From Candidatus Aminicenantales bacterium (GTDB taxonomy: Bacteria > Acidobacteriota > Aminicenantia > Aminicenantales > Saccharicenantaceae), in the NCBI GenBank assembly GCA_049512315.1, contig JBEKXF010000011.1:30180-94179 (forward strand): 64,000 bases of DNA. Reading direction: 5' to 3'. The notes beneath the pieces are model-generated. The model ran no database searches and had not been told where the DNA came from. It saw nothing but the letters and a program-made list of their open reading frames with translations. Positions 6,784 to 53,100 of this stretch are shown piece after piece. Within the stretch, counting starts at the first letter, position 1, and each line of letters begins with the position of its first letter. A program made the translations under genes and the position numbers.

Positions 6784-7278
6784 CTAATCCGAATAATCCT
6801 TGAAGAGCCGGACCAGAGTCTCCTTGCCCATCGAGCCGGATGTCCGGTAGCGGATCCGGCCCTTCCTGTCGATGATGATGGTCGCCGGGATGTATTGCCC
6901 CGGCTGGTAATCCATGATGATCTGCCCGGTGGCCATGGCGACGGGATAGATCATCCCGGCCTTCTCGGCCCACTCGCGGAGCCTGTCGAGGGAGATGCGG
7001 TCGACGGAGAGGCCCAGGATCTCGAGGCCCTGGGCATTCAAGCTCTTGTAGGCTTCGATGAAATCGGGGATCTCCTCCCGGCAGGGGGGGCACCACGTAG
7101 CCCAGAAATTCAGGACCAGGACCTTTCCCTTATAGGACGCCAGGGTGAGCGTGTTTCCCTTGAGGTCCTTGACCGAAAAATCAGGGGCCGGCGCGTTATC
7201 TTCCTGCGCCTTGGCACAGGCGGCCGCCCCGGCCGCGATGAGCGCTCCCGCCGCGAGAACGATCAAGAACCTTTTCAT
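6784..7278 (-). CDS. periplasmic thiol:disulfide oxidoreductase, TlpA/ResA-like thioredoxin-fold protein
   Basis: Signal peptide MKRFLIVLAAGALIAAGAAAC then WATWCPPC redox motif; start moved from track ORF (7407) to internal ATG 7278 preceded by GAGGAG RBS. Confidence 0.8.
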   Translation of the reverse strand: MKRFLIVLAAGALIAAGAAACAKAQEDNAPAPDFSVKDLKGNTLTLASYKGKVLVLNFWATWCPPCREEIPDFIEAYKSLNAQGLEILGLSVDRISLDRLREWAEKAGMIYPVAMATGQIIMDYQPGQYIPATIIIDRKGRIRYRTSGSMGKETLVRLFKDYSD

Positions 7279-7417
7279 CTTCTTCTCCTCGGTCTCCGCG
7301 CCTTCGCGGAAGGGCCCGGGACCGGACGACCCACCGTCCGAAATATGACTAATCCGATATGAATTATAAGCTAAGGAGCGGACGGCCGCAAGGCCGCGGC
7401 CGGACAAGGGCAGTGGC

Positions 7418-8314
7418 TCAGGCCCCGCAGCCCTTGAGGAGGCGCTCCCAGCGGGCGTCGACCTCGGCCTGAAGCTCCGCGATCTGGGCTTCGTTCAAAT
7501 GACGGAATCTCCCCTGGAGCCGGAGGTAGTCGTTGATCGGCTTTTTCTCCTTGAGTTTCAAATTCAAGGTCGTCCTCAGGCCGTCCTCGATCTCGAAGAG
7601 CGGGAAATAGGCGTTCTGGACGGCCATCCGGGCCAGCTTCACGGTGTCGTCGGGCCGGCTCTTCCAGCCCGTCGGGCACGGCGCGTAAACGTGGAAGAAG
7701 CGCGTCCCCTTGATCCCCTTGGCCTTCGTCATTTTCTTGAAGAAATCTTCCGGGTGCGAAATGCTGGCGGTCGCGATGTAGGGGATACGGTGGGCCGCGA
7801 GGATCGCCACGATATCCTTTTTCGGCCGGGTCTTGAAATGCTTGACCGGGGTCGTCGTCGTCCAGGCGCCGTAGGGCGTCGCGGAGCTCCGCTGGATGCC
7901 GGTGTTCATGTAGGCTTCGTTGTCGTAGCAGACGTAGATGATATCCTCGTTCCTCTCGGCCGCCCCGGACAGGGCCTGGAGGCCGATGTCGAACGTCCCG
8001 CCGTCGCCGGCCCAGGCGACCACCGTCGTCTCCGTGTCCCCCGTCATTTCCAGCCCGGCCTTGACCCCCGTTGCCGTGGAGGCGGCGGTCTCGAAGGCGC
8101 AGTGGTAGATGGGGACGTCCATGGAGGAATAGGGATAGGGTCCGTCGATGACCGCCCAGCAGCAGGCGGGAATGCAGAGCACGGTCTTCTGGCCGAGCGC
8201 CTTGAGCATGTAGCGCATGGCGAGGGTCGCGCCGCAGCCCTGGCAGGCCAGGTGGCCGCAGGCCATCAGCTCATCCGCGGGAAGCGTCAGGGTCATCTTC
8301 TTTTCTTTTTTCAT
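7418..8314 (-). CDS. porB: pyruvate/2-oxoacid:ferredoxin oxidoreductase beta subunit (TPP-binding)
   Basis: 298 aa; TPP-binding GDGG..NE pattern (WAGDGGTFDIG ... CYDNEAYMNTG), conserved Cys cluster; last gene of G-D-A-B order; 4-nt overlap with porA. Confidence 0.85.
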   Translation of the reverse strand: MKKEKKMTLTLPADELMACGHLACQGCGATLAMRYMLKALGQKTVLCIPACCWAVIDGPYPYSSMDVPIYHCAFETAASTATGVKAGLEMTGDTETTVVAWAGDGGTFDIGLQALSGAAERNEDIIYVCYDNEAYMNTGIQRSSATPYGAWTTTTPVKHFKTRPKKDIVAILAAHRIPYIATASISHPEDFFKKMTKAKGIKGTRFFHVYAPCPTGWKSRPDDTVKLARMAVQNAYFPLFEIEDGLRTTLNLKLKEKKPINDYLRLQGRFRHLNEAQIAELQAEVDARWERLLKGCGA

Positions 8315-9465
8315 TTCTTGACTCCGATCCAGACGATCTCTTCGTCGGCTTTGTCCTTGGACAGAGCGTGGGCGGCGACTTCCTTGAACGTGTCCACGGT
8401 GATGTCTCGTCCGCCGAGCCCGGTGATGTAGCCGAAGAGCGGCGGCATCCCGGCCTCGCCGTAGAGCGCCGATTTCACTTCCTGGTAAAAGATGCCGTGG
8501 GCGCCGTAGGAGCAGTTCCGGTCGACGACGGCCGCCTTCCTGACCTTTTGGAGGACCTCCCGGACCTTGGCGAAGGGGAAGGGCCGGAAGACCTTGATGC
8601 GTAAATTCCCGGCCTTGACGCCGGACATGCGGAGGTCATCGACGGCGACGCGGGCTGTGAATCCGGCCGTCCCCGATGTGACGAAGACGAACTCGGCATC
8701 GTCGCACCGGTAGGGGTCGACGAGACCGAGGTAGCGGCCGAAGAGCTTCTCGTACTCCCGGCCCGTCTCTTCAATCAGGGCCGGGGCCTTTTCCATGTCC
8801 TTCTGGAGCTTGTAGCGGAGCTCGAAATAGTGTTCCGACCCGGTCAGCCCCCCGAAGGCGTGGGGGTCGCTCGGCGTCAGGCGGATGGCCGGCTTGAAGG
8901 GTGGAAGGTACTTGTCGACCTTCTCCTGTTCAGGGATCTCGACGACCTCGTAAGTATGGGAGAGGGCGAAGGCGTCGAGGACGACCATGGCCGGGATCAT
9001 CAACTTCTCGGAGACCTTGAAGGCCTGGATGACGGTGTCGAGGACCTCCTGGTTCGACGAGCAGTAGTACTGCATCCAGCCCGTGTCCCGCTGGGACAGG
9101 CTGTCGTTCTGGTCGGTCCAGATCGACCAGCCCGGGGCCATGGACCGGTTGACGTTGCCCATGACGATGGGGTGGCGGCCGCCCGAGGCCCAGTGAAGCA
9201 TTTCGTGCATGAGGGCCAGCCCCTGAGATGAGGTCGCCGTGAAGGTCCGGGCCCCGGCGACCGAGGCGCCGATGCACGAGGCCATGGCCGAGTGCTCGGA
9301 TTCGACCTTGATGAACTGGGCGGCGAGCGTCCCGTCGGCGCACATCTCGGAGAGGAGCTCGACGACCTGCGTCTGCGGCGTGATCGGGTAGGCGGCGATG
9401 ACCTGGGACCGGGAGAGCATGGCCCCGTATGACAGAGCGTGGTTGCCCATCATGACTTTCTTCAT
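8311..9465 (-). CDS. porA: pyruvate/2-oxoacid:ferredoxin oxidoreductase alpha subunit
   Basis: 385 aa from internal ATG (MKKVMMGNHALSYG...) whose ATG overlaps the porD stop (ATGA); typical PorA N-terminal sequence; track ORF N-extension rejected. Confidence 0.85.
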   Translation of the reverse strand: MKKVMMGNHALSYGAMLSRSQVIAAYPITPQTQVVELLSEMCADGTLAAQFIKVESEHSAMASCIGASVAGARTFTATSSQGLALMHEMLHWASGGRHPIVMGNVNRSMAPGWSIWTDQNDSLSQRDTGWMQYYCSSNQEVLDTVIQAFKVSEKLMIPAMVVLDAFALSHTYEVVEIPEQEKVDKYLPPFKPAIRLTPSDPHAFGGLTGSEHYFELRYKLQKDMEKAPALIEETGREYEKLFGRYLGLVDPYRCDDAEFVFVTSGTAGFTARVAVDDLRMSGVKAGNLRIKVFRPFPFAKVREVLQKVRKAAVVDRNCSYGAHGIFYQEVKSALYGEAGMPPLFGYITGLGGRDITVDTFKEVAAHALSKDKADEEIVWIGVKK

Positions 9466-9758
9466 TTCCGCTCCTCCACCATGACGATGCACTTGGCGGG
9501 ACATTCCTCGGCGCAGATGCCGCAGCCCTTGCAGTAGTCGTAGTCCACGACTGGCCATTCGTCGACGATGTCGATCGACGGTTCGGGGCAGAACTTCCAG
9601 CAGATGCCGCACTTGAGGCACTTAGACAGGTCGATCTCGGGCCGGATGTTCCGCCAGGCGCCCGTCAAGTTATGGGTTTGACTGCCGATGGAGATGACCA
9701 TGGTCGGCATCTCCTCGGCCGACTTGAAAACGATCTTTTTAGCTTTCTTTTCCCTCAT
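9462..9758 (-). CDS. porD: pyruvate:ferredoxin oxidoreductase delta subunit (2x[4Fe-4S] ferredoxin)
   Basis: 98 aa with two CxxCxxCxxxCP motifs (CLKCGICWKFCP; CKGCGICAEECP). Confidence 0.85.
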   Translation of the reverse strand: MREKKAKKIVFKSAEEMPTMVISIGSQTHNLTGAWRNIRPEIDLSKCLKCGICWKFCPEPSIDIVDEWPVVDYDYCKGCGICAEECPAKCIVMVEERK

Positions 9759-9771
9759 GTCTGATCCTCCC

Positions 9772-10314
9772 TCAGGCCCGCGCGTAGGCTTCCTCGGCCG
9801 CCTTGACGTTGTCCTCCGGCTTGATGGAGATGCCCTCGCGGATGGCTTGGGCCAGGGACTCGAGTTTCGTCAGGCCGAGGACCTTGATGACGGCGCCGGC
9901 GATGGCCGTGTTGACGATCGGGGCGGCCAAGCTCCCCAGCCTGTTCTTGACGGCGATTTCGGTGGCGTTGATCGTCCGGACCTTGAACTTGCCGTGGAAG
10001 GGGAAGTCCTCGGGCCGGCGGTCGCTGTTGATGATGATCGTCCCGCCCGCCTTGAGGCCGTCGGTGATGTCGATGGCCTCGACGAGGGTGGGGTCGACGA
10101 CGACGACGTGGTCGGGGGAATAGATCCGGCTCTTGTCGTAGATCGGCTTGTCGTCGATGCGGATGAAGGCGACGACGGGCGAGCCCCGCCGTTCGACGCC
10201 GAATTCGGGGTAGGCCTGGACCCAGTTGCCTTCCTTGGCGATGGCGTCGGCCAGGATCTTGGAGGCGACGACGGTGCCCTGGCCGCCGCGGCCGTGAAAT
10301 CGGATTTCGACCAT
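9772..10314 (-). CDS. porG: pyruvate:ferredoxin oxidoreductase gamma subunit
   Basis: Starts MVEIRFHGRGGQGTVVASKIL (canonical PorG N-terminus) at internal ATG 10314; track N-extension rejected. Confidence 0.85.
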   Translation of the reverse strand: MVEIRFHGRGGQGTVVASKILADAIAKEGNWVQAYPEFGVERRGSPVVAFIRIDDKPIYDKSRIYSPDHVVVVDPTLVEAIDITDGLKAGGTIIINSDRRPEDFPFHGKFKVRTINATEIAVKNRLGSLAAPIVNTAIAGAVIKVLGLTKLESLAQAIREGISIKPEDNVKAAEEAYARA

Positions 10315-10396
10315 GTCCCTCTCCTTTCCGATGTTGGATGAGGCGCTATTATATGCCCGAAGGCCCCCGGAAGGGAAGTGGTCCGGGCGCATTCCA

Positions 10397-23046: not shown

Positions 23047-25071
23047 TCAGGACGAGGGAACCGTCGTCCTCCGGAAATGGAGGAGGTATTCTTCAAGCCC
23101 CTTGATGTCCTTGTAGCTCAGGTCCCGGAATTTCAGGCCCGAATAAAAGAAGGGCGTTTCGTTCTCCGGGCTCCTCGAGTAAATGACGTCGCTCTTGACA
23201 AGGCAGGCCTTGTCGCCGAGGACGATGATGGCGTCCACGGTGCCGGCCGGAGGCAGCTTCGCGTCCGAGATCACCCTGGCCCCGCCGACGCTCAGGTTCA
23301 CGGTCTTGGCTACCTTGAATTCGCCGTCCTCCTCTATCATCAGCAGGGTTGAGACGCTCCATCGCTCGTGCTTCCGGCGCTCCCGGAGGATCGGCTCCTG
23401 GGCCTGCCGGGCTTCCGCCTTCCTGTGTTCATCATCCTTCTCCCCGAGATAGGTCGAGACGCGGTTCTTCGTCAGGGCCGCCTCCTCGCCCTCCCGCGCC
23501 TTCAGGTCCGGACGGCGCTTCCCCTTCGCTTCCGCCAGGGCCGTGTCGGCCTCCATGGCCAGCCGCTTCAGATCGGCTCTCGTCAGCGGGGGGGGCTGGT
23601 CCGTCTTGTTCTTGGGAAAGACGGTCACGCCGAACGACATGGTCAGGTTGTTCTGCGGCTGGAATTCCTGGAATTCGAAATAGTGGTCCTCGACGTTCTT
23701 GCGGATCCGCTCGGTGAGGACGGCCGCCTCGTCCGGGCTCTTGACGCCCGTCAGGAAGAAGAGGAATTCCTCGCCCCCGTAGCGGCAGAGGAGGTCCTCC
23801 TCGCGGATGGAGAGCTTCAGGACATGGGCCAGCTCGCGGAGGAGCCGGTTGCCCGCTTCCTGCCCGTTACGGTCGTTGTAGTTCTTGAACCAATCGACGT
23901 CCCCCATGACGAGGGCCAGGTCGCCCGCCTCCTGACGCCGCTTGCCCAGGGCGTTGACCTTCTGGAGGACCTTCTCGAAAAAGGGCTCCGGCCGGAGGAG
24001 CCCGGTCAGGGCGTCGTACTGGATGAGGTTGAGCTTCATCATGGCGATGGCCATGTGCTCGGAGATCCCTTCCAGGATCTGCTGGTCCTCGCGGCTGAAG
24101 CCGTCGGCATTCGTCTTGCCCGGCGCGGTCTTGTTGTAGACCTCGACGACGCCGATGACCTTCCGGCTGTGCATGATGGGGACCGCCAGCAGGTTTTTCA
24201 GCGGCGCCTTGAGGAATTCGGTGTAGCGCTTGGTCATCCTCTGGTCGAAGGCGAGGTCGGAGACGTTGATGCCCTGACCGTAGCGGGCGACCGTGGCCGC
24301 GAAATCCTGAGAGCCCCAGAGGGCGATATACTTCGAGAACTCCGCGTGGGTGAGATAGGCGTTGTCCCAGACGAGGGGCTTCAGGTAGCGGCCGAGGACA
24401 TCGTTCTCTTCGATGAGATAGACCGTCGCGCTCGCGGCCTTGACGATGTCCCGGATGTCCGGCAGGATGTCGAGGAGGCTGTTGACGTCGTCGGAGGCGT
24501 AGATCTTCCGGAGGATGGCCTCGATCCGCTGCCGCTCCTTCTGAAACCACACGTACTTGGTCTCGATGGCGATCCGCTTTTCGATCTCCAAAAGGAAGTT
24601 GGAATTGATCAGGCCCTTGATCTCCTGGATCTCCGCGTAGACATCGCGGACCTTGGACTCGTGCTGGGCGAGGGCCCGGCGGAGGTCCTCGGCCTCGGTC
24701 CGCATCCGGGCCTGCCCGAGCGCGCGTTCGAGGGCGACGAGGAACGACCGGTCGCGGGGGGAGTCGGGATCTCTGACAAAGACATCGACGGCAAAGGCCG
24801 GCGGCCATTCGTCGGCCGCCCGTCGCAGCTCGCCTTCGTCGGTGCCCGTCAGGATGACCGCGGTCGTCGGCCGCAGCAGGTCCCGGAAAAGGGAATAACG
24901 GGCGAAGCCGGCCCCCAGGACCGCGACCCCGACCGAAACCCCCTCCAGCCGGCTGCTCAATCCCTCGAGATCCGTCCCGGCCAGGACCGGCCCGAAGACA
25001 GCGGCCAACTTGGAGAGCAGGTCAACGTCAGAGGGAGACGGGTGGAGAATAAGGATCCGTTTCTGACTCAT
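23047..25071 (-). CDS. diguanylate cyclase with GAF sensor domain and C-terminal PilZ domain (GAF-GGDEF-PilZ)
   Basis: GGEEF active site (RYGGEEFLFF), GAF-like region, C-terminal PilZ motifs RRKHER (RxxxR) and NLSVGGARV (D/NxSxGG). Confidence 0.8.
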   Translation of the reverse strand: MSQKRILILHPSPSDVDLLSKLAAVFGPVLAGTDLEGLSSRLEGVSVGVAVLGAGFARYSLFRDLLRPTTAVILTGTDEGELRRAADEWPPAFAVDVFVRDPDSPRDRSFLVALERALGQARMRTEAEDLRRALAQHESKVRDVYAEIQEIKGLINSNFLLEIEKRIAIETKYVWFQKERQRIEAILRKIYASDDVNSLLDILPDIRDIVKAASATVYLIEENDVLGRYLKPLVWDNAYLTHAEFSKYIALWGSQDFAATVARYGQGINVSDLAFDQRMTKRYTEFLKAPLKNLLAVPIMHSRKVIGVVEVYNKTAPGKTNADGFSREDQQILEGISEHMAIAMMKLNLIQYDALTGLLRPEPFFEKVLQKVNALGKRRQEAGDLALVMGDVDWFKNYNDRNGQEAGNRLLRELAHVLKLSIREEDLLCRYGGEEFLFFLTGVKSPDEAAVLTERIRKNVEDHYFEFQEFQPQNNLTMSFGVTVFPKNKTDQPPPLTRADLKRLAMEADTALAEAKGKRRPDLKAREGEEAALTKNRVSTYLGEKDDEHRKAEARQAQEPILRERRKHERWSVSTLLMIEEDGEFKVAKTVNLSVGGARVISDAKLPPAGTVDAIIVLGDKACLVKSDVIYSRSPENETPFFYSGLKFRDLSYKDIKGLEEYLLHFRRTTVPSS

Positions 25072-27096: not shown

Positions 27097-27174
27097 GTCA
27101 CACATTGTGCCTTGCGGCACCCTTCCATCCTGTTGAAATCAAAGCGGATGGAGGACGGCGGCACAAAGTGTGAC
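27097..27174. other. extended imperfect inverted repeat/stem-loop: GTCACACATTGTGCC (27097-27111) vs GGCACAAAGTGTGAC (27160-27174, 14/15 complementary) with inner stem CCTTCCATCC/GGATGGAGG
   Basis: Read directly in the 278-bp hutU-downstream intergenic region; candidate sRNA, terminator-proximal structure or protein-binding site. Confidence 0.35.
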
Positions 27175-27310
27175 GCGGCGGCCCGGGCGGATGCAGCCCG
27201 GCGGCCGCCGGCTAGGCCATAACCTATTTTAAATCAACGGGATGTGAGCGGGAGGAAAATTTTCGTAGTGGCATGAAGATTGCTTAAGAAAAGGCCGAAA
27301 GGAGACCCCA

Positions 27311-27529
27311 ATGAAAAAAGCGGTTTTGCTGGCCCTCGTCGGGCTCATCTTGTTTTCCACGGCCGTCTTTTATCCGCTCGCCGCGCGCGCTCGTGATGTC
27401 AACGAGTGCTACAACAACCACACGGCCTGCCGCGAGCGGGCGCTCAACATGGATGCCGCCTGGACCAAGATCGCCCTCGCCCTGACCGTCTGCGACCTTG
27501 CCCTCGGCAAATGCATCCTGGCCGCCTAG
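27311..27529 (+). CDS. small secreted Cys-rich peptide (72 aa precursor; ~45-aa mature part with 4 Cys), hypothetical
   Basis: Sec signal MKKAVLLALVGLILFSTAVFYPLAARA; mature RDVNECYNNHTACRERALNMDAAWTKIALALTVCDLALGKCILAA (C-x6-C ... C-x7-C); lower GC than flanks; AAAGGAG RBS. Confidence 0.5.
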   Translation: MKKAVLLALVGLILFSTAVFYPLAARARDVNECYNNHTACRERALNMDAAWTKIALALTVCDLALGKCILAA

Positions 27530-27541
27530 GTCCGAGCCGCA

Positions 27542-27567
27542 GGAGGCCCCCCTCGCCGGGGGCCTCC
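27542..27567 (+). terminator. perfect 10-bp GC hairpin GGAGGCCCCC-ctcgcc-GGGGGCCTCC, 13 nt after the small-peptide stop; attenuator/terminator-like (no strong U-tract)
   Basis: Inverted repeat read directly; placement between a short highly-expressed-type gene and downstream co-directional genes. Confidence 0.4.
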
Positions 27568-27593
27568 CCGATTGTCTTCACGGAGAGCCGACG

Positions 27594-28598
27594 ATGACCC
27601 TGAAGCCCGTTTGGAAGCGAATGTTTTTTCTGCTCGCCCTGGCGGCCGGCTTTCCCCGCTCACCGGGGGCCGCCGCGCTCGATGGCCCTTCGGTCAGGCG
27701 CTACGTCGCTGAGGACGTGACCTCCGCCTTTGAAAAACCCGAGGAGGGCTGCCTCGCCTTGGCCGTCTCCCTGACGTTCGACGCCGATCATATCTACGTC
27801 GCCGACGCGGAGGATTGTGCCGTCAAGATCTTTTTGAAGAACGGCCGGTTCAAGTCCGGGGTCGGCCGGAAAGGCCGCGGGCCGGGGGAATTTTCCTTCC
27901 CTTCGGGCGTTTCGGTCCTCGGAGGGCGGCTCTTCGTGGCCGACAAGCTCAACCATCGGATCCAGGTCCTCGACCCTTCGGGGCGATATCTCCGGAGCTT
28001 CGGGGTCCCCTTTGCCCCGGACCGGGCCATCGTCCTCACGGCGGACAGGATGCTCGTCACTCACATTCCTTCCGGACGGTCGGGTCCGGAGAAGCTCCTC
28101 CACGCTTTCGACGGGAGGGGCAACCTTCTCTGGGAGGGCCTCCCGGCCCGTTTTTCGGGCGACCCCGTGTTCGACACGTTCCGGAACATGATCCTGGTTT
28201 CCGCCGGGCCGCGGGGCGATTTTTTCGTGGTCTTCCGCTGCCAGGAACGATCGATCCTTCATTACGGCCCAGGCGGAGATCTCCTGGCCCGGATCCCGGC
28301 GGACGGGCGCTACGTCTTCAAGACCCTATCCCTTCCGGTCAGGGGGCCGCGGAAAACGATCGACGGCTTCTGCTGGGACTGCTCGTTCGACCGCGAGCGC
28401 TTTTACCTTTTGGCCCCGGCCTACACGGAGGAAAGAGACCTGGGTCCCGGAGATCAGGTCTTTGTCCTCGATGCGACCGGCCGGCTCGAAGCCCAGATCA
28501 GCCTCCCGTCCCAGGTGGGGCGGATGGCCGTGGACGGTGACAGGATCTACGCGGTGGACCGGGCGGGCGGGCTCCGGGTCTTCAGGATCGTCCGATGA
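27594..28598 (+). CDS. NHL-repeat six-bladed beta-propeller protein, secreted
   Basis: Signal peptide MTLKPVWKRMFFLLALAAG; repeated NHL-type blades (YVADAEDCAVKIF, GPGEFSFPSGVSVLGGRLFVADKLNHRIQVLD, RIYAVDRAGGLRVF); start at internal ATG with GGAGAG RBS. Confidence 0.7.
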   Translation: MTLKPVWKRMFFLLALAAGFPRSPGAAALDGPSVRRYVAEDVTSAFEKPEEGCLALAVSLTFDADHIYVADAEDCAVKIFLKNGRFKSGVGRKGRGPGEFSFPSGVSVLGGRLFVADKLNHRIQVLDPSGRYLRSFGVPFAPDRAIVLTADRMLVTHIPSGRSGPEKLLHAFDGRGNLLWEGLPARFSGDPVFDTFRNMILVSAGPRGDFFVVFRCQERSILHYGPGGDLLARIPADGRYVFKTLSLPVRGPRKTIDGFCWDCSFDRERFYLLAPAYTEERDLGPGDQVFVLDATGRLEAQISLPSQVGRMAVDGDRIYAVDRAGGLRVFRIVR

Positions 28599-29062
28599 TC
28601 CCGCGGAGCGCGGCACTGTTCGTTCTCGCCTTGGGGGCGGCCCTCCTGACCGCCTCGCCGGCCGACGTCGAAGTCCGGATCTGTCTGAGCCTCGAGGAAG
28701 CGACCGGTCAGGCCGGACGCCCCGTCCTTCTCGTCTTTTTCTCGACGGAATGCCCCTCCTGTTATGACGACCTTTTCGAAGCGAGATATCTCGTCGAAAA
28801 GGCCGGCTTCGACGTGACCGTCATCGGCGTCTTCTCCGGACCGAGGGATAGGCTCCGGGCCTTCCTCGAAAAATTCGCCTGGACCCTGCCCGTCGTTCTG
28901 GACAGGAGAAAAGCGCTTTTCCGGAAGTTCCGGGTGGACATGGTCCCTTATAAGGCCCTCCTCTCGGGAGGAGAGGCGGTCTATCGCGACGACCCTTACA
29001 AAGATTACGGCCGGCGCCGGGAGGATCTCGAAAGATGCTTGAAAAAAATGTTTTCCCGCTGA
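28595..29062 (+). CDS. periplasmic thioredoxin-fold protein (TlpA/redoxin-like, CPSC motif)
   Basis: Signal peptide; VLLVFFSTECPSCYDDL CxxC motif; ATGA overlap with NHL gene stop. Confidence 0.7.
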   Translation: MIPRSAALFVLALGAALLTASPADVEVRICLSLEEATGQAGRPVLLVFFSTECPSCYDDLFEARYLVEKAGFDVTVIGVFSGPRDRLRAFLEKFAWTLPVVLDRRKALFRKFRVDMVPYKALLSGGEAVYRDDPYKDYGRRREDLERCLKKMFSR

Positions 29063-29769
29063 CGGTCCGGCTGACGCGCCTGAAGCTCCGGGCCTCGAAG
29101 TTCACCCTCGCCTTGGCGGTCTTTCTTCCGGCTTTCCTCGTTTTCCTCGGCGTCCGGACGACCTACGGCACGGCGATGAAGTTTTTCCTCTTTTTCTTTC
29201 CCTATGTTTTTCTCGTCGCCGCCCAGGATATGGTGGGGACGGAGGTCGCGGGCGGGGCCCTGGAGAACGTCCTTTTTCTCCGGGGCGGATTCAGGCGATA
29301 CCTCTGGCAGAAAAATTTCGCCCTGGCCGCGGCGGCCGCGGGCTATGCGGCTTCCCTGTTCTTTCTCGCCGCGCTCTGGGGGGTCGCCTGCGGGAAGTTC
29401 AATCCGCTCTCGGTCCCGCAATTCGGCCTCGGGCTTCTGGCCGGCTTTTATTATGTCGGGGCCGCCGGGGCGCTGAGCTACTTCCTCAAGGCCGGCTCCA
29501 ACGTGGTCGTCATCCTCCTCGCCCAGGCCGCCGCGCTCCTCGGGCTGCTCTTTTCCGCAACCTCGCGGACCGGCTTCATCGATCACCTCGGGACCGGGAG
29601 ATTCCCCGACCTGGGCTCCAGGCTCCTGTTCGTCGGCTTCACCTCCGTTTTTCCAAACCTGATCGTTTCGCCGCGGCTCCTCCGCGGCGGATTCACCGTC
29701 GCCGCGGGCCTGGCCGTCCTCCTTCTTTTTCAGAAGGCGCTGGTCCGGCGGCTCGAGCTCCGGAAATAG
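29035..29769 (+). CDS. ABC-2 type transporter permease (polytopic membrane protein)
   Basis: ~6 hydrophobic helices, no other domains; overlaps upstream gene by 28 nt and is followed 11 nt later by the ABC ATPase. Confidence 0.6.
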   Translation: MLEKNVFPLTVRLTRLKLRASKFTLALAVFLPAFLVFLGVRTTYGTAMKFFLFFFPYVFLVAAQDMVGTEVAGGALENVLFLRGGFRRYLWQKNFALAAAAAGYAASLFFLAALWGVACGKFNPLSVPQFGLGLLAGFYYVGAAGALSYFLKAGSNVVVILLAQAAALLGLLFSATSRTGFIDHLGTGRFPDLGSRLLFVGFTSVFPNLIVSPRLLRGGFTVAAGLAVLLLFQKALVRRLELRK

Positions 29770-29780
29770 GGAAGGACGAG

Positions 29781-30476
29781 ATGCTGTGCGTGAGCGGGCT
29801 TCAGAAAAGCTTCGGCCCAATCCAAGCCGTGCGGGACGTGAGTTTTTCGCTTGAAAAGGGCCGGACGACGGCTTTGCTCGGCGAGAACGGAGCGGGAAAA
29901 ACGACCACGCTGAAGATCATCCTCGGCTTCCTGAGACAGGATTCGGGTACGGTCGAGACGGGCGCCGGCCGCATCGGCTACGTCCCCGACCATCCCGTGT
30001 TTCTCCCCTGGCTCAGCGGGAAGGCCCTCCTGGACCTGACGTCCCGTTCCTCGGGGCTCGGGGGGCCGAAGTGGGCGGCGGGGGTCCGGAGGCTCTGCGA
30101 CCGGCTCCTCTTCGACCCGGCCCTGCTCGAACGAAGGCCCGGGACCTATTCCGCGGGGAACGCCAAGAAGTTCGCCTGCCTCCAGAGCCTGGCCATCGTC
30201 CCCGAGCTCCTCGTCGTCGACGAGCCCTTCTCCGCCCTCGACCCGCCGTCCATCAAAAGGGTCCGCGACCTCTTCGCGGAAACCCGGGACCGGGGGGCGG
30301 CCATCCTTCTGAGCTCGCACATGCTGGCGGAGATGGTCAAGATCAGCGACGATTTCATCGTCATCCGGCGGGGAGAGGTCGTGGTCCGCTCGGGGCTGCC
30401 GGAATTCCTGTCCCGTTTCCGGCCGGCGGGAGCCGGCGAGCTCGAGTCGGCCTTCCTGGGCCTCATGCGGGGCTGA
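29781..30476 (+). CDS. ABC transporter ATP-binding protein
   Basis: Walker A GENGAGKTT, ABC signature-like YSAGNAKK, Walker B LLVVDEPFSALD, H-loop SSHML. Confidence 0.8.
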   Translation: MLCVSGLQKSFGPIQAVRDVSFSLEKGRTTALLGENGAGKTTTLKIILGFLRQDSGTVETGAGRIGYVPDHPVFLPWLSGKALLDLTSRSSGLGGPKWAAGVRRLCDRLLFDPALLERRPGTYSAGNAKKFACLQSLAIVPELLVVDEPFSALDPPSIKRVRDLFAETRDRGAAILLSSHMLAEMVKISDDFIVIRRGEVVVRSGLPEFLSRFRPAGAGELESAFLGLMRG

Positions 30477-30487
30477 GCCGGGCCCGG

Positions 30488-32743
30488 CTATTTGGCCGCC
30501 GTCAGCCTCTCGATGGCCTCCGCGATCCGCCGCCGGTAATCGAGGAGGGCCTGGGGGTCCTTGGTGTATTCCTGGCCGGATTTGAAGAGCGAGGCGGGGA
30601 AATCGAGGAGTTTCTTCGCCTCGCGGGCGGCCTTGGCCGCCGCCCCCGGGGCTTCCCGGGCGGCTTTTTCCAATAGCTTGAAATACTCGTAGTCTTCGAT
30701 CCCCTCCCGCAGGATCTCCCAACGGATCGAATTCACCGGGCCGGTCAGGTACTTCGTCTTGTCCTTCCCGGGATGCCGGTTCGGCGGGTAGAGGAACCGG
30801 CCGTCTCCGTTCCCCCAATAATTGACCTGGCCATAGGGCAGGCCGTAGCCCACGGTGTAGGACATCGGGTCATCCCAGGGGTTCTGGAGCTCTCCGGCCG
30901 GGAAGAGCGTTGGGCTCGACCAGTAGTTGGCCCGCCAGACCAGGATCCCCTTGAGGCCGAACCGCTGCGACATCCAGAGCCAGATCCTCAGGTTGATGGC
31001 CGGGTGGTCGATGAAAAGCGTCACCCACGGCCCCTTGGGCGCGGTGCAGAGGTAGGACCAGAACTCCCGTCCCTGGGGCGCGAGTCTGGCCACGACGGCC
31101 GGGTCGACCTGGTGGAAAATCGTGCAGCTGATCTCGGAGACGTCCATGATGTCCGGCCCCGGTTTGTGTTCGGTGATGAACCGGGTCAGCTTGGAGCCGT
31201 TCTTCCGGATGTTGACCATCCCCGCGCGGACGAACGGATAGTCCTTGGGATCCGGCTCATCGAACCAGTAAATATATTCTTTTCCCAGCCAGCCGTTCTC
31301 TTCGAGGTGCTTCTGGATCTGCCCCAGGTGCGCGCTGAGGAGGTGGTCGTACTCGGGCGTGCCCTGGCGGAAGCCGCCGAACATCCCTTCCTGCTGCGAA
31401 TAGAACGAGCCCGTGCCGAGGCCCTTCAGCGGGAGGTCGAAGGAGTTGAAGCCGAATTCCCCGATATAGCGGCGGGCGGCCCGGTCGAATTCCCGGAAAT
31501 CCGTTTCGACCGCCATCCCGTTCATGTCCATCTCGAAATCCCCGCCCGGGACGAGGTTCGCAGTTCCGCCTGCGGCCGTCAGGGAAATGTCATCGAAATA
31601 GGCCGTCCCCGTAGCGGTCCCCGTCTCGTCGCGGAAGGCCGGGAAAAGATGGAGGACGACAGACTTGACCTCGGCCGGATAGGCCGGCGCCTCCAGCCGC
31701 TCTTCCTTCCATTCCTCTTGACCCTTGAAGACTTTGACCAGGTTGAGAGGGGGGACGGGCGCACCGCTCGCGTCGAGGGCCTGCAGGAAGACCGTATAGT
31801 CCTGCCCCGCTTTTTCCGTCCTGGCCCACCAGGCCAAGCGATAGGGGATCCCGGCGGAGACGGGGATGGGCGCGGCGCTCGCCGCTTCGACCGCCTCGTT
31901 CGGGCTCGAGTCGACGATCTTCAGGCTCCGCCGACCGCCGTGGGCCGGGCCGGACACGAACTCGCCTCCTTGCCACGGGATCCCGGAGAACCTGACTTCG
32001 AGGGGAAACAGGTCGCCGAAAGAGATCGGGGCGACCCGATGGGCCCGGAAGTTCTCCATGTAGAGGCCGTAAACCTTTTCCAATTCCTCCCGGGTGCTCA
32101 GGTTGTGGTAGGCCTTGATGTCGGCTGAGATGAGGCCGAAGGCGGACCGGATGCTCGGCGTCCGCGGGAGGGTGAAGTTCCAGACATGGAGACGGACTGG
32201 GACGGCGACGGACCATTCATCGGACGAAAGGACGACCTGGCCCTCGTAATCCCCCGCCGGCGTCCCCTCCGGCACGAAGACCGTGATCCAGAGCGGGCAG
32301 TTCTCGCCCGCCGGCGCGGTGAACGGCCCTTCGTACGGCGGCAGCGGATCGGGCCAATCGCCGGCGGCGCCGAGGGCGTCCGTGGGGCGGGTGACCTTGA
32401 CATAGCTCACGCGGGCGACGGAAATGTTCGACGCGGCGATCTCCGCTCCCGATCTCCGCCGCAGGGGGCCGGCTTCCAGCCGGACACTGGTCGCGGACTT
32501 CTTCGGGACGAGGACGACCTGGAAAGGCTCGTACTCGTTCCGGGCGGCCTGGATGACGACCGCCGCGCCGCGCCGGGCGGGAAGGGGGTCGGTCTTCCTG
32601 ATCTTGTAGGCCCCCGCCGCCCACCACACGGAAACGAGTGGGCCGTCCTTGATGAGCTCCCCGGCCGCATCCGCCCGCAGACGGGCCGGGGAGAGAATCG
32701 CCAGAGCCAATAAAAGGACCGGCAGAGCGCGCAATCTTTTCAT
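30488..32743 (-). CDS. secreted putative glycoside hydrolase (DUF4091-like), 751 aa
   Basis: Signal peptide MKRLRALPVLLLALAILSPARLRA; large beta-rich N-terminal region and C-terminal TIM-like region; family assignment from memory only. Confidence 0.55.
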   Translation of the reverse strand: MKRLRALPVLLLALAILSPARLRADAAGELIKDGPLVSVWWAAGAYKIRKTDPLPARRGAAVVIQAARNEYEPFQVVLVPKKSATSVRLEAGPLRRRSGAEIAASNISVARVSYVKVTRPTDALGAAGDWPDPLPPYEGPFTAPAGENCPLWITVFVPEGTPAGDYEGQVVLSSDEWSVAVPVRLHVWNFTLPRTPSIRSAFGLISADIKAYHNLSTREELEKVYGLYMENFRAHRVAPISFGDLFPLEVRFSGIPWQGGEFVSGPAHGGRRSLKIVDSSPNEAVEAASAAPIPVSAGIPYRLAWWARTEKAGQDYTVFLQALDASGAPVPPLNLVKVFKGQEEWKEERLEAPAYPAEVKSVVLHLFPAFRDETGTATGTAYFDDISLTAAGGTANLVPGGDFEMDMNGMAVETDFREFDRAARRYIGEFGFNSFDLPLKGLGTGSFYSQQEGMFGGFRQGTPEYDHLLSAHLGQIQKHLEENGWLGKEYIYWFDEPDPKDYPFVRAGMVNIRKNGSKLTRFITEHKPGPDIMDVSEISCTIFHQVDPAVVARLAPQGREFWSYLCTAPKGPWVTLFIDHPAINLRIWLWMSQRFGLKGILVWRANYWSSPTLFPAGELQNPWDDPMSYTVGYGLPYGQVNYWGNGDGRFLYPPNRHPGKDKTKYLTGPVNSIRWEILREGIEDYEYFKLLEKAAREAPGAAAKAAREAKKLLDFPASLFKSGQEYTKDPQALLDYRRRIAEAIERLTAAK

Positions 32744-52760: not shown

Positions 52761-52919
52761 CCGGTTTTTCCCCGGCTCCAGGGGGGATTCCGCTATCTTG
52801 CGGCCATCCGGACTTCCTTGCTTCATGAATGGAGGACCTTCGGCCTCGCGATCCAAGCGCTGTCCCTTTTCCTGTGGAGGAATTTGGCGCGTTCATCATG
52901 ACAGGGGTCGTTTTCGGGC

Positions 52920-52943
52920 GGAATCACCTCGAGGGGTGATTCC
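52920..52943. promoter_or_regulatory. perfect 9-bp inverted repeat GGAATCACC-tcgagg-GGTGATTCC in centre of 380-bp divergent intergenic region; candidate operator
   Basis: Read directly. Confidence 0.35.
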
Positions 52944-53033
52944 GTCGAGCAATTATTGCGTCGGCTCCTTACCCCTAAAGGCTAACCACAGGCAGGGGCA
53001 GGCGGAGCGAAGAAAACGGCTCGGGAAGAGCTG

Positions 53034-53062
53034 TTGTATTTCCGGCCCGGCTGCAATAGAAT
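53034..53062 (+). promoter_or_regulatory. sigma70-like promoter for M24 peptidase: -35 TTGTAT (53034-53039), 17-nt spacer, -10 TAGAAT (53057-53062)
   Basis: Read directly; GAAGGAAGG RBS before ATG 53101. Confidence 0.45.
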
Positions 53063-53100
53063 CTAGGGCCTTGAGATCGAGGAATGAAGGAAGGTCCAGA

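What the first reader, a model, noticed from the sequence alone, without database searches (positions are those of the whole stretch)
27311..30476. Candidate secreted Cys-peptide maturation/export locus: small 4-Cys peptide + GC hairpin + NHL propeller + periplasmic thioredoxin + ABC-2 exporter
A low-GC 72-codon gene encodes a Sec-signal peptide whose ~45-aa mature part carries a C-x6-C...C-x7-C pattern. That pattern suggests a helical hairpin fixed by two disulfides. A perfect 10-bp GC hairpin (27542-27567) follows 13 nt after its stop. Precursor genes are often followed by attenuator-like hairpins so that they are made in excess over their processing genes. Downstream on the same strand are four more genes: an NHL six-bladed beta-propeller (the NHL fold is used by the peptide-amidating lyase PAL and by peptide/protein-binding scaffolds), a periplasmic CPSC thioredoxin-fold protein, an ABC-2 permease and an ABC ATPase. 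The last four nearly abut one another (ATGA overlap at 28595-28598, a 28-nt overlap at 29035-29062, an 11-nt gap before 29781). I do not recognise this combination as a described RiPP, bacteriocin or nos/ccm-type system.
Basis: partly seen in the sequence, partly recalled or inferred. Interest (0 to 1): 0.72.

Follow-up and report, generated by a model that had tools for sequence, protein, structure and literature searches.

The report
Twin-CX6C hairpin peptide maturation cassette
A small secreted four-cysteine peptide gene sits at the head of a five-gene cassette (beta-propeller, periplasmic thioredoxin, two-part ABC pump) that recurs intact in very different uncultivated bacteria and has not been described; the peptide has the cysteine framework of the glycocin bacteriocins but none of their other machinery.

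Summary
The window comes from a Candidatus Aminicenantes genome. ORF 27311-27529 encodes a Sec-signal peptide followed by a ~46-aa domain with four invariant Cys. The spacing is C-x6-C-x20-C-x6-C, not x7, and the gene is not low-GC. AlphaFold predicts a confident helical hairpin.

Every full-length orthologue of the NHL/DUF5128 propeller that has upstream DNA carries this peptide gene just before it. The peptide-propeller-CxxC thioredoxin triad recurs in at least five unrelated genomic contexts. These include 29-36% GC contigs and a Candidatus Omnitrophica genome, usually with the same ABC-2 permease and ATPase. Propeller and thioredoxin are fused in some lineages.

The GC hairpin after the peptide stop is conserved with compensatory changes. 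I also found a conserved sigma-54 promoter and, in close relatives, two enhancer-like palindromes upstream.

Best reading: the peptide is the dedicated client of a periplasmic propeller-plus-thioredoxin oxidoreductase of the NHLRC2/SOQ1 type. That enzyme sets or edits two nested disulfides on a glycocin-like (C-x6-C)2 hairpin. The ABC pump handles something other than primary export.

The cassette is not a glycocin, PAL, Ccm, Nos or bufferin system. What the peptide itself does is unknown. I rate it a new variant of known kinds, moderately to highly interesting.

The parts
27097..27111 (+). Palindromic site 1 (GTCACACATTGTGCC), a candidate binding site for a sigma-54 enhancer-binding protein
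   Evidence: GKCACA-N3-TGTGMC occurs only twice in the window, against 0 expected. The same pair, 63-64 bp apart, sits in the hutU-peptide spacer of L001-L011, L013, L016 and L017 and nowhere else in those loci. Function is inferred.
27160..27174 (+). Palindromic site 2 (GGCACAAAGTGTGAC), 63 bp from site 1 and ~96 bp upstream of the -24 element
   Evidence: The two sites together explain the long 'hairpin' with z = -3.9 and the weak hits on both strands to a miRNA model in Rfam.
27269..27284 (+). Sigma-54 type -24/-12 promoter TGGCATGAAGATTGCT
   Evidence: It is the only match to TGGCAY-N5-TTGCW in 64 kb, against 0.03 expected. A strict match lies 36-54 nt (mostly ~42) before the peptide ATG in 32 of 42 unique loci, with near-matches in at least six of the other ten. 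It is also present in the sister subfamily loci L047, L053 and L063.
27300..27304 (+). Shine-Dalgarno AGGAG, 6 nt before the ATG
   Evidence: Read directly from the sequence. GAAAGGAG is conserved in nearly all orthologous loci.
27311..27529 (+). Precursor of the twin-CX6C peptide. Residues 1-26 form a Sec signal (A-R-A, likely signal-peptidase I site). The mature ~46 aa carry C33, C40, C61 and C68.
   Evidence: Searches show conservation and four invariant Cys. AlphaFold helices 30-45 and 51-71 with pLDDT 94-96. GC3 0.84. There is no Pfam, NCBIfam or PDB match.
27542..27567 (+). GC-rich stem-loop (10 bp, 6-nt loop) between the peptide and propeller genes. It is either a leaky intrinsic terminator or an mRNA 3'-stabiliser.
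   Evidence: An equivalent hairpin with a different stem sequence is present in ~35 of ~38 unique loci, including loci at 29-35% GC, and is often followed by a T-run. 5 of 8 consensus pairs show double-sided changes. The T-tract is weak in the window (CCCCGATTGTCTTC).
27594..28598 (+). Periplasmic six-bladed NHL/DUF5128 beta-propeller (334 aa, with signal peptide)
   Evidence: Pfam; profile against PDB: TRIM-NHL, NHLRC2, BF0058, SOQ1, PAL; model of a 47%-identical fusion homologue; propeller pLDDT above 90; best Foldseek hits Brat/TRIM NHL. No invariant His; C260 is conserved in 32 of 36.
28595..29062 (+). Periplasmic TlpA-like thioredoxin-fold protein (155 aa), CPSC at residues 53-56 (nt 28751-28762)
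   Evidence: AhpC-TSA, Redoxin; weak StoA/ResA/MauD hits. The CxxC is invariant in 35 of 35 orthologues. It is fused to the C-terminus of the propeller in P0116, P0117, P0121, P0124, P0129, P0136 and P0146.
29035..29769 (+). Divergent ABC-2-type permease (244 aa, ~6 TM). It overlaps the thioredoxin gene by 28 nt.
   Evidence: Orthologues hit ABC2_membrane_4 (7 of 13) and ABC2_membrane_2 (3 of 13). Orthologues in the distant cassettes L100, L102 and L103 score E = 1e-30 to 1e-81. The 28-nt overlap is also present in the fused locus L012.
29781..30476 (+). ABC ATPase (231 aa) with Walker A GENGAGKT, Walker B LLVVDE, H-loop SSH and an atypical signature YSAGN
   Evidence: ABC_tran; closest NCBIfam families DrrA, LptB, lantibiotic-protection and GldA, all far below their cut-offs. 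Motifs were read from the translation.

Best explanation
This is a conserved periplasmic peptide-handling cassette. I give the steps in order and mark which are shown and which are inferred.

1. Transcription. A sigma-54 promoter transcribes the small gene when an unidentified enhancer-binding protein is active. In the window, that protein probably binds the two upstream palindromes. Motif evidence only.

2. Stoichiometry. A conserved stem-loop directly after the stop codon terminates or stabilises most transcripts. The peptide is therefore made in excess over the four downstream genes, which depend on read-through. Inferred.

3. Export and folding. The precursor is exported by Sec and cut after A-x-A. 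This leaves a ~46-aa helix-loop-helix. C33/C40 on the polar helix 1 face C68/C61 on the hydrophobic helix 2. Heptad spacing and symmetric distances from the turn put the four Cys in position for two nested disulfides, C33-C68 and C40-C61. Inferred from sequence and model.

4. Redox chemistry. The NHL propeller acts as the peptide-binding platform. The TlpA-like CxxC protein docked on it (fused to it in some lineages) carries out thiol-disulfide exchange on those four Cys. This parallels the Trx-like + NHL pairs NHLRC2 and SOQ1, and the thioredoxin-like isomerases of glycocin clusters. The direction (forming or isomerising versus reducing) is unresolved. CPSC and TlpA/CcmG-type similarity lean towards reduction.

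5. The ABC-2 permease and ATPase. These are translationally coupled to the thioredoxin gene. They do not perform primary export. Most likely they clear or hand over the amphipathic peptide at the membrane, or supply a small molecule. Some lineages have lost them.

The physiological role of the finished peptide is not established.
For: Gene linkage:
- The peptide lies immediately upstream of every full-length propeller orthologue that has upstream DNA.
- All 42 signal-peptide twin-CX6C ORFs found in 80 propeller-centred loci lie directly upstream, on the same strand, of a propeller gene.
- The triad occurs in at least five unrelated contexts: the hutU...glgC block; the Saccharicenans PpiD-OPT-M29 block; and L098, L099 (Omnitrophica), L100, L102 and L103.
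- The whole five-gene order is kept at 29-36% GC.
- Propeller-thioredoxin fusions exist.

Co-evolution: identity of the mature peptide tracks propeller identity with r = 0.92.

Chemistry and structure:
- The four peptide Cys and the CxxC are invariant.
- The helical-hairpin model has pLDDT 94-96.
- All three proteins carry N-terminal signal sequences.

Expression signals:
- Conserved hairpin.
- Conserved sigma-54 promoter.

Precedents from papers:
- In NHLRC2 the Trx-like active site faces the propeller cleft (PMC6107167).
- The SOQ1 lumenal Trx-like/NHL domains act on a protein client (bioRxiv 10.1101/2024.11.01.621559).
- Glycocins have two nested disulfides between two helices, and their clusters encode thioredoxin-like isomerases (PMC6405829, PMC12457901).
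Against: - No direct evidence shows that the peptide binds the propeller or is a substrate of the thioredoxin.
- The Trx part of the fusion model was poorly predicted (pLDDT below 50 over much of it). The geometry of the CxxC relative to the propeller is therefore unknown.
- One distant family member (P0179, L096) is an orphan with no propeller or thioredoxin nearby.
- In the sister subfamily only 6 of 10 loci show a recognisable CxxC protein downstream.
- The hairpin in the window lacks a good U-tract. Its fold energy is not exceptional for this GC content (z = -1.4).
- No electron donor or acceptor (CcdA/DsbD/DsbB) was identified.
- The role of the ABC pump is a guess.
Confidence: 0.55

Rival explanations
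1. It is a Sec-dependent bacteriocin-like or other membrane-active peptide: a sugar-free relative of the glycocins. The thioredoxin staples it. The propeller is an immunity or carrier protein. The ABC-2 pump is a LanFEG-type self-protection transporter.
For: - It has the same (C-x6-C)...(C-x6-C) framework as sublancin (sequence in PMC5964538) and plantaricin ASM1/glycocin F (sequence in PMC11727157).
- Glycocins have nested disulfides, and their clusters encode Trx-like genes and an ABC transporter (PMC6405829, PMC12457901).
- Helix 2 is hydrophobic enough to score as TM-like (KD 1.98).
- The structural gene is followed by a terminator.
- The ATPase hits the lantibiotic-protection family at 4e-27.
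- Orthologues of the permease hit ABC2_membrane_4.
Against: - The peptide is as conserved as its partner enzymes and co-diverges with them.
- It is single-copy and has been vertically inherited in a stable syntenic site across a whole class. That is unlike arms-race toxins.
- The pump, the supposed immunity element, is absent in several lineages that keep the peptide.
- The producers are presumably diderm, and no outer-membrane export step is encoded.
- There is no sequence homology to glycocins.
- The ATPase score is far below the family cut-off (95 against 310 bits).
Confidence: 0.2
2. The peptide is a periplasmic metal- or cofactor-binding small protein, or a small subunit of a propeller enzyme. 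It would be comparable to bufferins, or to MauA with the MauB propeller and MauD thioredoxin. The reductase would keep the Cys reduced for loading, and the ABC pump would deliver the ligand.
For: - Sec-signal Cys peptides that act in the periplasm as copper buffers exist (bufferins, bioRxiv 10.1101/2024.03.18.585515).
- TlpA-type proteins reduce Cys for metallation (cited in PMC6107167, ref. 40).
- The thioredoxin hits MauD weakly (1.4e-3).
- An invariant Asp follows C61.
- A TonB-dependent receptor follows the triad in Saccharicenans loci.
- The CPSC motif is of the reducing CcmG type (my own knowledge).
Against: - There is no MNIO/DUF692 or any other cofactor-forming enzyme in the cassette.
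- Cys at i and i+7 on one helix are too far apart to share a metal, so the geometry favours disulfides (inference).
- The terminator implies the peptide is made in excess over the propeller, which does not fit a 1:1 subunit.
- The single Trp is not invariant, so a TTQ-type cofactor is unlikely.
Confidence: 0.12
3. It is an inducible periplasmic redox or oxidative-stress module of anaerobes. The abundant 4-Cys peptide would be a sacrificial thiol/disulfide buffer that the propeller-thioredoxin pair recycles.
For: - The sigma-54 promoter implies inducible expression.
- The peptide is made in excess.
- The thioredoxin is of the AhpC/TSA-Redoxin type.
- SOQ1's lumenal domains are reported to have a protein-repair (methionine sulfoxide reductase) activity, assigned there to its C-terminal domain, with the Trx-like domain as reductant (bioRxiv 10.1101/2024.11.01.621559).
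- The orphan family member lies beside two rubrerythrin genes.
- L098 is flanked by a thioredoxin and MarR genes.
Against: - The flanking-gene hints are anecdotal and differ between contexts.
- A buffer role does not explain the ABC pump or the hydrophobic helix.
- No source of reducing power was identified.
Confidence: 0.1
4. The genes are merely neighbours, or the four downstream genes belong to a known operon (Ccm cytochrome maturation, Nos, or copper handling) that has nothing to do with the small ORF.
For: Within Aminicenantes the locus sits in a conserved hutU...glgC synteny block. Co-occurrence there alone would not prove linkage.
Against: - The cassette recurs outside that block, in unrelated contexts and phyla.
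- Gene fusions exist.
- CcmA is not among the 25 best NCBIfam families listed for the ATPase and no CcmB-type Pfam family matches the permease. No NosD/L/Z or CcmC/E/F/H genes lie next to the cassette.
Confidence: 0.03

Closest known systems
Glycocins (sublancin 168, glycocin F/plantaricin ASM1, pallidocin, thermoglycocin)
   Same: - A ribosomal peptide with two C-x6-C pairs on two antiparallel helices. In glycocins these are joined by two nested disulfides.
- The gene cluster includes thioredoxin-like thiol-disulfide oxidoreductases and an ABC transporter.
- Sources: sequences in PMC5964538 and PMC11727157; clusters and disulfides in PMC6405829 and PMC12457901.
   Different: - No SunS/GccA-type glycosyltransferase.
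- A Sec signal instead of a double-glycine leader.
- A two-gene ABC-2 pump instead of a C39-peptidase ABC exporter.
- A 20-aa inter-Cys loop instead of 8-14.
- An added NHL propeller.
- Hosts are Aminicenantes/Omnitrophica rather than Firmicutes.
- No detectable sequence homology.
- Highly conserved rather than patchy.
NHLRC2 / SOQ1 (Trx-like domain + NHL six-bladed propeller proteins)
   Same: - A thioredoxin-fold module physically coupled to an NHL propeller. Here they are separate overlapping genes, or fused.
- The propeller profile hits NHLRC2 (3e-9) and SOQ1 (8e-5).
- SOQ1 works in a periplasm-like compartment on a protein client.
   Different: - The domain order is reversed (propeller first).
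- The motif is CPSC/CxxC, not CC(I/V)NC.
- There is no C-terminal beta-stranded domain.
- There is a dedicated small peptide partner and an ABC pump. The NHLRC2 paper found no conserved gene neighbours in bacteria (PMC6107167).
DUF5128 / BF0058-type exported six-bladed propellers of Bacteroides (PDB 4raa)
   Same: A Pfam DUF5128 hit. 4raa is among both the sequence and the fold matches.
   Different: The function of that family is unknown. From memory only, Bacteroides DUF5128 genes neighbour small 'NVEALA' proteins. I could not test this here, and the peptide does not hit PF14055.
Peptidyl-alpha-hydroxyglycine alpha-amidating lyase (PAL)
   Same: The NHL-type six-bladed fold. There are weak sequence and fold matches to 3fvz.
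   Different: There is no invariant His to build PAL's zinc site. The peptide C-termini are variable and do not end in Gly.
Bufferins (Sec-signal, Cys-containing periplasmic RiPPs)
   Same: A small precursor with a Sec signal peptide and conserved Cys that acts in the periplasm (bioRxiv 10.1101/2024.03.18.585515).
   Different: No MNIO (DUF692) or DUF2063 partner. The Cys framework and the partner proteins are different.

Membership tests
Glycocins | Two C-x6-C pairs on a helix-loop-helix (nested disulfides) | tested here: met
   C33-x6-C40-x20-C61-x6-C68 is invariant. The model shows helices 30-45 and 51-71. The disulfides themselves cannot be tested in silico.
Glycocins | A SunS/GccA-type S/O-glycosyltransferase in the cluster, and a glycosylated loop residue | tested here: not met
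   None of the five cassette genes is a glycosyltransferase. The distant cassettes L100, L102 and L103 also lack one.
Glycocins | A double-glycine leader removed by a C39-peptidase ABC exporter | tested here: not met
   The N-terminus is a Sec signal with an AxA site. The ABC system is a separate ~6-TM permease plus a 231-aa ATPase with no peptidase domain.
Glycocins | Sequence relatedness to known glycocin precursors | tested here: not met
   The family HMM against sublancin and ASM1 scores about 1-2 bits.
NHLRC2/SOQ1-type Trx-NHL oxidoreductases | A thioredoxin-fold domain coupled to an NHL six-bladed propeller | tested here: met
   The genes are adjacent and overlapping in the window. Natural fusions exist. 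The propeller profile hits NHLRC2 and SOQ1. The domain order is reversed.
NHLRC2/SOQ1-type Trx-NHL oxidoreductases | A CC(I/V)NC active-site motif (PMC6107167) | tested here: not met
   The motif is CPSC in the window and CxxC (CHVC, CSVC, CLVC, CPVC) elsewhere.
NHLRC2/SOQ1-type Trx-NHL oxidoreductases | The Trx active site faces the propeller cleft | tested here: inconclusive
   In the fusion model the Trx part has low confidence, and no coordinates were available to measure.
PAL (peptide amidating lyase) | A His-ligated zinc site and a Gly-extended substrate | tested here: not met
   No His is invariant in 36 propeller orthologues. The peptide C-termini are variable.
Ccm cytochrome c maturation (CcmA/B/G) | CcmA/CcmB family transporter, CcmG, and neighbouring CcmC/E/F/H | tested here: not met
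   The 25 best NCBIfam families listed for the ATPase do not include CcmA. The permease has no CcmB hit. The neighbours are hutU and GH123.
Nos (NosDFYL) ABC-2 system | A NosD beta-helix protein, NosY permease, NosL, and NosZ nearby | tested here: not met
   Only a weak ABC2_membrane_2 hit in 3 of 13 permease orthologues. No NosD, NosL or NosZ in the cassette.
LanFEG-type lantibiotic immunity ABC transporters | Membership of the lantibiotic-protection ATPase/permease families | tested here: inconclusive
   TIGR03740 scores 95 bits against a cut-off of 310, no better than DrrA, LptB or GldA. Permease orthologues hit ABC2_membrane_4 weakly.
Bufferins | An MNIO (DUF692) modifying enzyme next to a Sec-signal Cys peptide | tested here: not met
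   No such domain in the cassette.
Sigma-54-dependent promoters | GG at -24 and GC at -12 with fixed spacing (TGGCAC-N5-TTGCW) | tested here: met
   27269-27284 is the only match in the window, against 0.03 expected. It is positionally conserved in orthologues. The activator was not found: no GAFTGA protein is encoded in the window.
Intrinsic terminators | A GC-rich stem-loop followed by a U-tract | tested here: inconclusive
   The stem is perfect and conserved. The U-tract is weak in the window but clear in many orthologues, e.g. L007, L018-L020 and L036.

The most novel reading that the evidence does not exclude
This would be a previously unrecognised class of Sec-exported, periplasmically matured ribosomal peptides. 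An NHL propeller working with a thioredoxin would be the maturation enzyme, possibly doing more than disulfide chemistry. It would also be the first bacterial case in which an NHLRC2/SOQ1-type Trx-NHL machine has an identifiable, genetically linked client. That would give a tractable model for the unknown biochemical function of human NHLRC2 (FINCA disease).
Probability: 0.2. Interest if true: 0.85.

Novelty: new variant of a known kind. Interest (0 to 1): 0.62.

Why it matters
1. The peptide family has no Pfam, NCBIfam or PDB match, and every source that names it calls it a hypothetical protein. Yet it is strictly conserved with its partners across Aminicenantes and reaches Omnitrophica and unrelated low-GC genomes.

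2. It extends the glycocin-type (C-x6-C)2 hairpin beyond Firmicutes bacteriocins. Here the hairpin appears with a different secretion route and different partner proteins.

3. Thioredoxin-NHL proteins are widespread. They are medically relevant (NHLRC2) and agriculturally relevant (SOQ1), but their substrates are poorly known. A bacterial cassette that names its own small client would make the chemistry directly testable by heterologous expression and mass spectrometry.

4. The compact control region is a clean model for regulated over-production of a small gene product within an operon. It consists of enhancer sites, a sigma-54 promoter and a conserved post-gene hairpin.

Tried and rejected
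- Pfam, NCBIfam and a PDB profile search for the peptide found nothing.
- Foldseek of the peptide model against PDB gave no significant match. Only generic helical hairpins appeared, with plant alpha-hairpinins among the weak hits.
- A PDB sequence search for the permease found nothing.
- The fusion-protein model did not resolve the Trx domain or the inter-domain geometry. No model coordinates were available for distance checks.
I used the propeller alignment instead.
- Codon-position counts across orthologues were saturated and uninformative.
- Rfam found no known RNA family in the leader or hairpin region.
- Literature searches for DUF5128/NVEALA and for CX6C periplasmic hairpins found nothing relevant.
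- I considered PAL-type amidation, Ccm, Nos, bufferin and TTQ/CTQ small-subunit models and rejected each; the reasons are in the membership table and the rival explanations.
- The idea that the ABC pair is a late, lineage-specific add-on was dropped. Distant low-GC cassettes carry orthologous permease and ATPase genes.

Full report
**What is in the sequence.** The window is a ~64% GC stretch whose closest public relatives are Candidatus Aminicenantes MAGs. The region has five same-strand genes:
- a 72-codon ORF (27311-27529);
- a 334-aa NHL/DUF5128 propeller (true start ATG 27594, end 28598);
- a 155-aa thioredoxin-fold protein with CPSC (28595-29062);
- a 244-aa membrane protein (29035-29769);
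- a 231-aa ABC ATPase (29781-30476).

A perfect 10-bp, 6-nt-loop GC hairpin lies at 27542-27567. Pfam and NCBIfam confirm NHL + DUF5128, AhpC-TSA/Redoxin and ABC_tran. The membrane protein has no hit itself. It has about six hydrophobic segments, and its orthologues weakly match ABC2_membrane_4 and ABC2_membrane_2.

Two details in the finding are wrong. Both Cys pairs are C-x6-C. The small gene is not low-GC: 62.1% against 63.9% for the window, with GC3 0.84 like its neighbours.

**The small ORF is a real gene family.**
- It has 26 homologues at 61-96% identity.
- A profile search of 1.8 billion representatives found 36 clusters.
- Every member has an N-terminal signal sequence ending in an AxA-type site, followed by x3-5-C-x6-C-x20-C-x6-C-x3-10. 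The four Cys are invariant, and Leu58, Thr59 and Asp62 nearly so.
- AlphaFold predicts helices 30-45 and 51-71 with pLDDT 94-96.
- The i/i+7 spacing puts both Cys of each helix on one face, and the pairs are symmetric about the turn. Nested C33-C68 and C40-C61 disulfides are therefore the natural reading (inference).
- Helix 1 is polar. Helix 2 is hydrophobic enough to score as TM-like.
- Nothing in Pfam, NCBIfam or the PDB resembles it.

**Linkage to the downstream genes.**
- Exact and near copies of the peptide always sit in the same five-gene order. That is within one synteny block (hutU upstream, glgC-like downstream), so I looked further.
- A propeller-centred scan of one genome per GTDB species returned 80 loci. 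In every locus with a full-length orthologue and upstream DNA, my HMM found the peptide gene just upstream.
- A pattern scan for signal-peptide twin-CX6C ORFs over all 80 loci found 42. All 42 lie directly upstream of a propeller gene on the same strand, and none lies elsewhere.
- The peptide-propeller-thioredoxin triad also occurs outside the hutU block:
  - in Saccharicenans-type genomes, between PpiD-OPT-M29 and a TonB-dependent receptor;
  - in a 35% GC contig between NIF3 and thioredoxin/MarR genes;
  - in a Candidatus Omnitrophica MAG;
  - in three further contigs at 29-50% GC.
- Two of those contigs (L102, L103) carry the whole five-gene cassette. L100 carries the first four genes up to its contig end. 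All three permeases are orthologous (E 1e-30 to 1e-81).
- The ABC pair is absent from L014, L015, L020, the Saccharicenans group and L098. It is therefore an ancestral but dispensable part.
- In seven protein clusters the propeller and thioredoxin are one polypeptide.
- Identity of the mature peptide tracks propeller identity across 35 loci (r = 0.92; means 51% and 45%). The peptide is thus under purifying selection at least as strong as that on its partners.
- One distant member is an orphan beside rubrerythrin genes.

**A sister subfamily.** Where hutU is followed by a more distant propeller paralogue, the spacer holds one or two signal-peptide ORFs with a related framework, CExAxxxC...CxxG[YFW]xFC[RK][KE]Y, and a loop of 14-22 residues. 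In 6 of 10 such loci the propeller is followed by a divergent ~170-aa CxxC protein that Pfam does not recognise. The pairing of a twin-CX6C peptide with an NHL propeller is therefore broader than the window's own family.

**Expression signals.**
- The hairpin alone is only mildly unusual: 2 perfect 10-bp hairpins in 64 kb against ~0.7 expected, and a fold z-score of -1.4.
- However, an equivalent strong stem-loop follows the peptide stop in about 35 of 38 unique loci, with different stem sequences. This includes loci at 29-35% GC. It is missing only where the gap is 17-29 nt.
- Five of eight consensus pairs show double-sided changes, and many orthologues have a T-run after the stem.
- Only 26 nt separate the stem from the propeller start codon. 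The downstream genes therefore probably depend on read-through (inference).
- Upstream, TGGCATGAAGATTGCT (27269-27284) is the only match to the sigma-54 -24/-12 consensus in the window, against 0.03 expected.
- A strict match lies 36-54 nt (mostly ~42) before the ATG in 32 of 42 unique loci, with near-matches in at least six of the other ten. It is also present in three sister-subfamily loci, but not in the four lowest-GC contigs.
- Two 15-bp palindromes, GKCACA-N3-TGTGMC, lie 63 bp apart about 100-170 nt upstream of the promoter. They are the only two in the window (0 expected). The same pair recurs in the same spacer of the closer relatives.
- This looks like an enhancer for a sigma-54 activator. 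None is encoded in the window.

**What the proteins resemble.**
- The propeller profile matches TRIM-type NHL domains best. It then matches NHLRC2, the Bacteroides exported protein BF0058, SOQ1 and PAL.
- A model of a fused homologue gives a confident six-bladed propeller with the same neighbours by Foldseek. The thioredoxin part was poorly modelled.
- No His is invariant in the propeller family, so a PAL-like zinc site is excluded. One Cys (C260) is nearly invariant. The thioredoxin CxxC is invariant in 35 of 35.
- NHLRC2 and SOQ1 are thioredoxin-like + NHL proteins. In NHLRC2 the conserved residues line the cleft between the two domains (PMC6107167). The SOQ1 lumenal domains act on a protein client (bioRxiv 10.1101/2024.11.01.621559).

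**The peptide framework is that of the glycocins.**
- Sublancin is GLGKAQCAALWLQC...CQNYRQFCR (PMC5964538).
- Plantaricin ASM1/glycocin F is ...CWYTLAMC-x8-CDYMYSHC... (PMC11727157).
- Glycocins have two nested disulfides between two helices. Their clusters encode thioredoxin-like isomerases, a glycosyltransferase and a peptidase-ABC exporter (PMC6405829, PMC12457901).
- Here the glycosyltransferase, the double-glycine leader and the peptidase-ABC exporter are all absent, and there is no sequence homology. This is a resemblance in design, not membership.

**Interpretation.** I commit to the following model. The peptide is the dedicated client of a two-component periplasmic oxidoreductase: the propeller as binding platform and the CxxC protein as catalyst. 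That enzyme sets or edits the two nested disulfides. The peptide is produced in excess from a sigma-54 promoter, with a leaky terminator or stabiliser before the enzyme genes. The ABC-2 pump has an auxiliary role at the membrane.
- Shown: gene linkage, fusions, co-evolution, invariant Cys, the predicted fold and the conserved cis-elements.
- Inferred: binding, the direction of the redox chemistry, the pump's role and the biological purpose of the peptide.
- Rivals, scored in their own section: a bacteriocin-like peptide with immunity, a metal- or cofactor-binding peptide, and a redox-stress buffer.
- Coincidental adjacency, and membership of Ccm or Nos, are effectively excluded.

**Verdict.** It is wrong on ABC-mediated export, on PAL chemistry and on two sequence details. 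I rate it a new variant of known kinds (glycocin-type hairpin peptides and NHLRC2/SOQ1-type Trx-NHL enzymes), with interest 0.62.

Noticed in passing
L047 5381-5865; L053 4071-4565; L063 3489-3938; L081 5322-5826; L073 2802-3044; also L045, L046, L049, L050, L054: A sister subfamily of signal-peptide twin-CX6C ORFs (CExAxxxC...CxxG[YFW]xFC[RK][KE]Y), often as tandem pairs. They lie directly upstream of more distant NHL propeller paralogues. In 6 of 10 loci a divergent CxxC protein that Pfam does not recognise follows the propeller.
   Followed up: partly
window 27097-27111 and 27160-27174: Two 15-bp palindromes 63 bp apart in the hutU-peptide spacer. They are the only two in the window and are conserved as a pair in close relatives. 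Other lineages instead show GTCAAC/CGTCAAAAG-type motifs in the same spacer (seen by eye). The regulator that binds them was not identified.
   Followed up: partly
window 30488-32743 (-): The GH123-family glycoside hydrolase gene between the cassette and the glgC-like gene is present only in the closest relatives. It is absent in L009-L010, L013 and most other loci, so it is a recent insertion into the synteny block.
   Followed up: partly
window 6784-7407 (-): A second, more canonical TlpA-like AhpC-TSA/Redoxin protein (E 1.5e-29). It is adjacent to 2-oxoacid:ferredoxin oxidoreductase subunit genes (7418-10392), which fits an anaerobic lifestyle.
   Followed up: no
window 52919-52944: The only other perfect 10-bp hairpin (6-nt loop) in the window. 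It lies in or near the start of a long ORF (52798-54393).
   Followed up: no
L048 11022-11273; L041 6531-6776: In Saccharicenans-type loci a second signal-peptide ORF (~82 aa) lies ~4-5 kb downstream of the triad. It follows a TonB-dependent receptor and an unknown 348-aa protein. It matches the peptide HMM weakly but has only 2-3 Cys.
   Followed up: partly
L096 6957-7178: An orphan member of the peptide family (P0179, 32% identity) with no propeller or thioredoxin gene nearby. It sits beside two rubrerythrin genes and Fe-S assembly genes.
   Followed up: no
window 23047-25071 (-): A GAF-GGDEF-PilZ protein (674 aa), divergently placed upstream of hutU. It is conserved in the same position across the Aminicenantes synteny block. 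A diguanylate cyclase carrying its own c-di-GMP receptor domain is an unusual combination.
   Followed up: no
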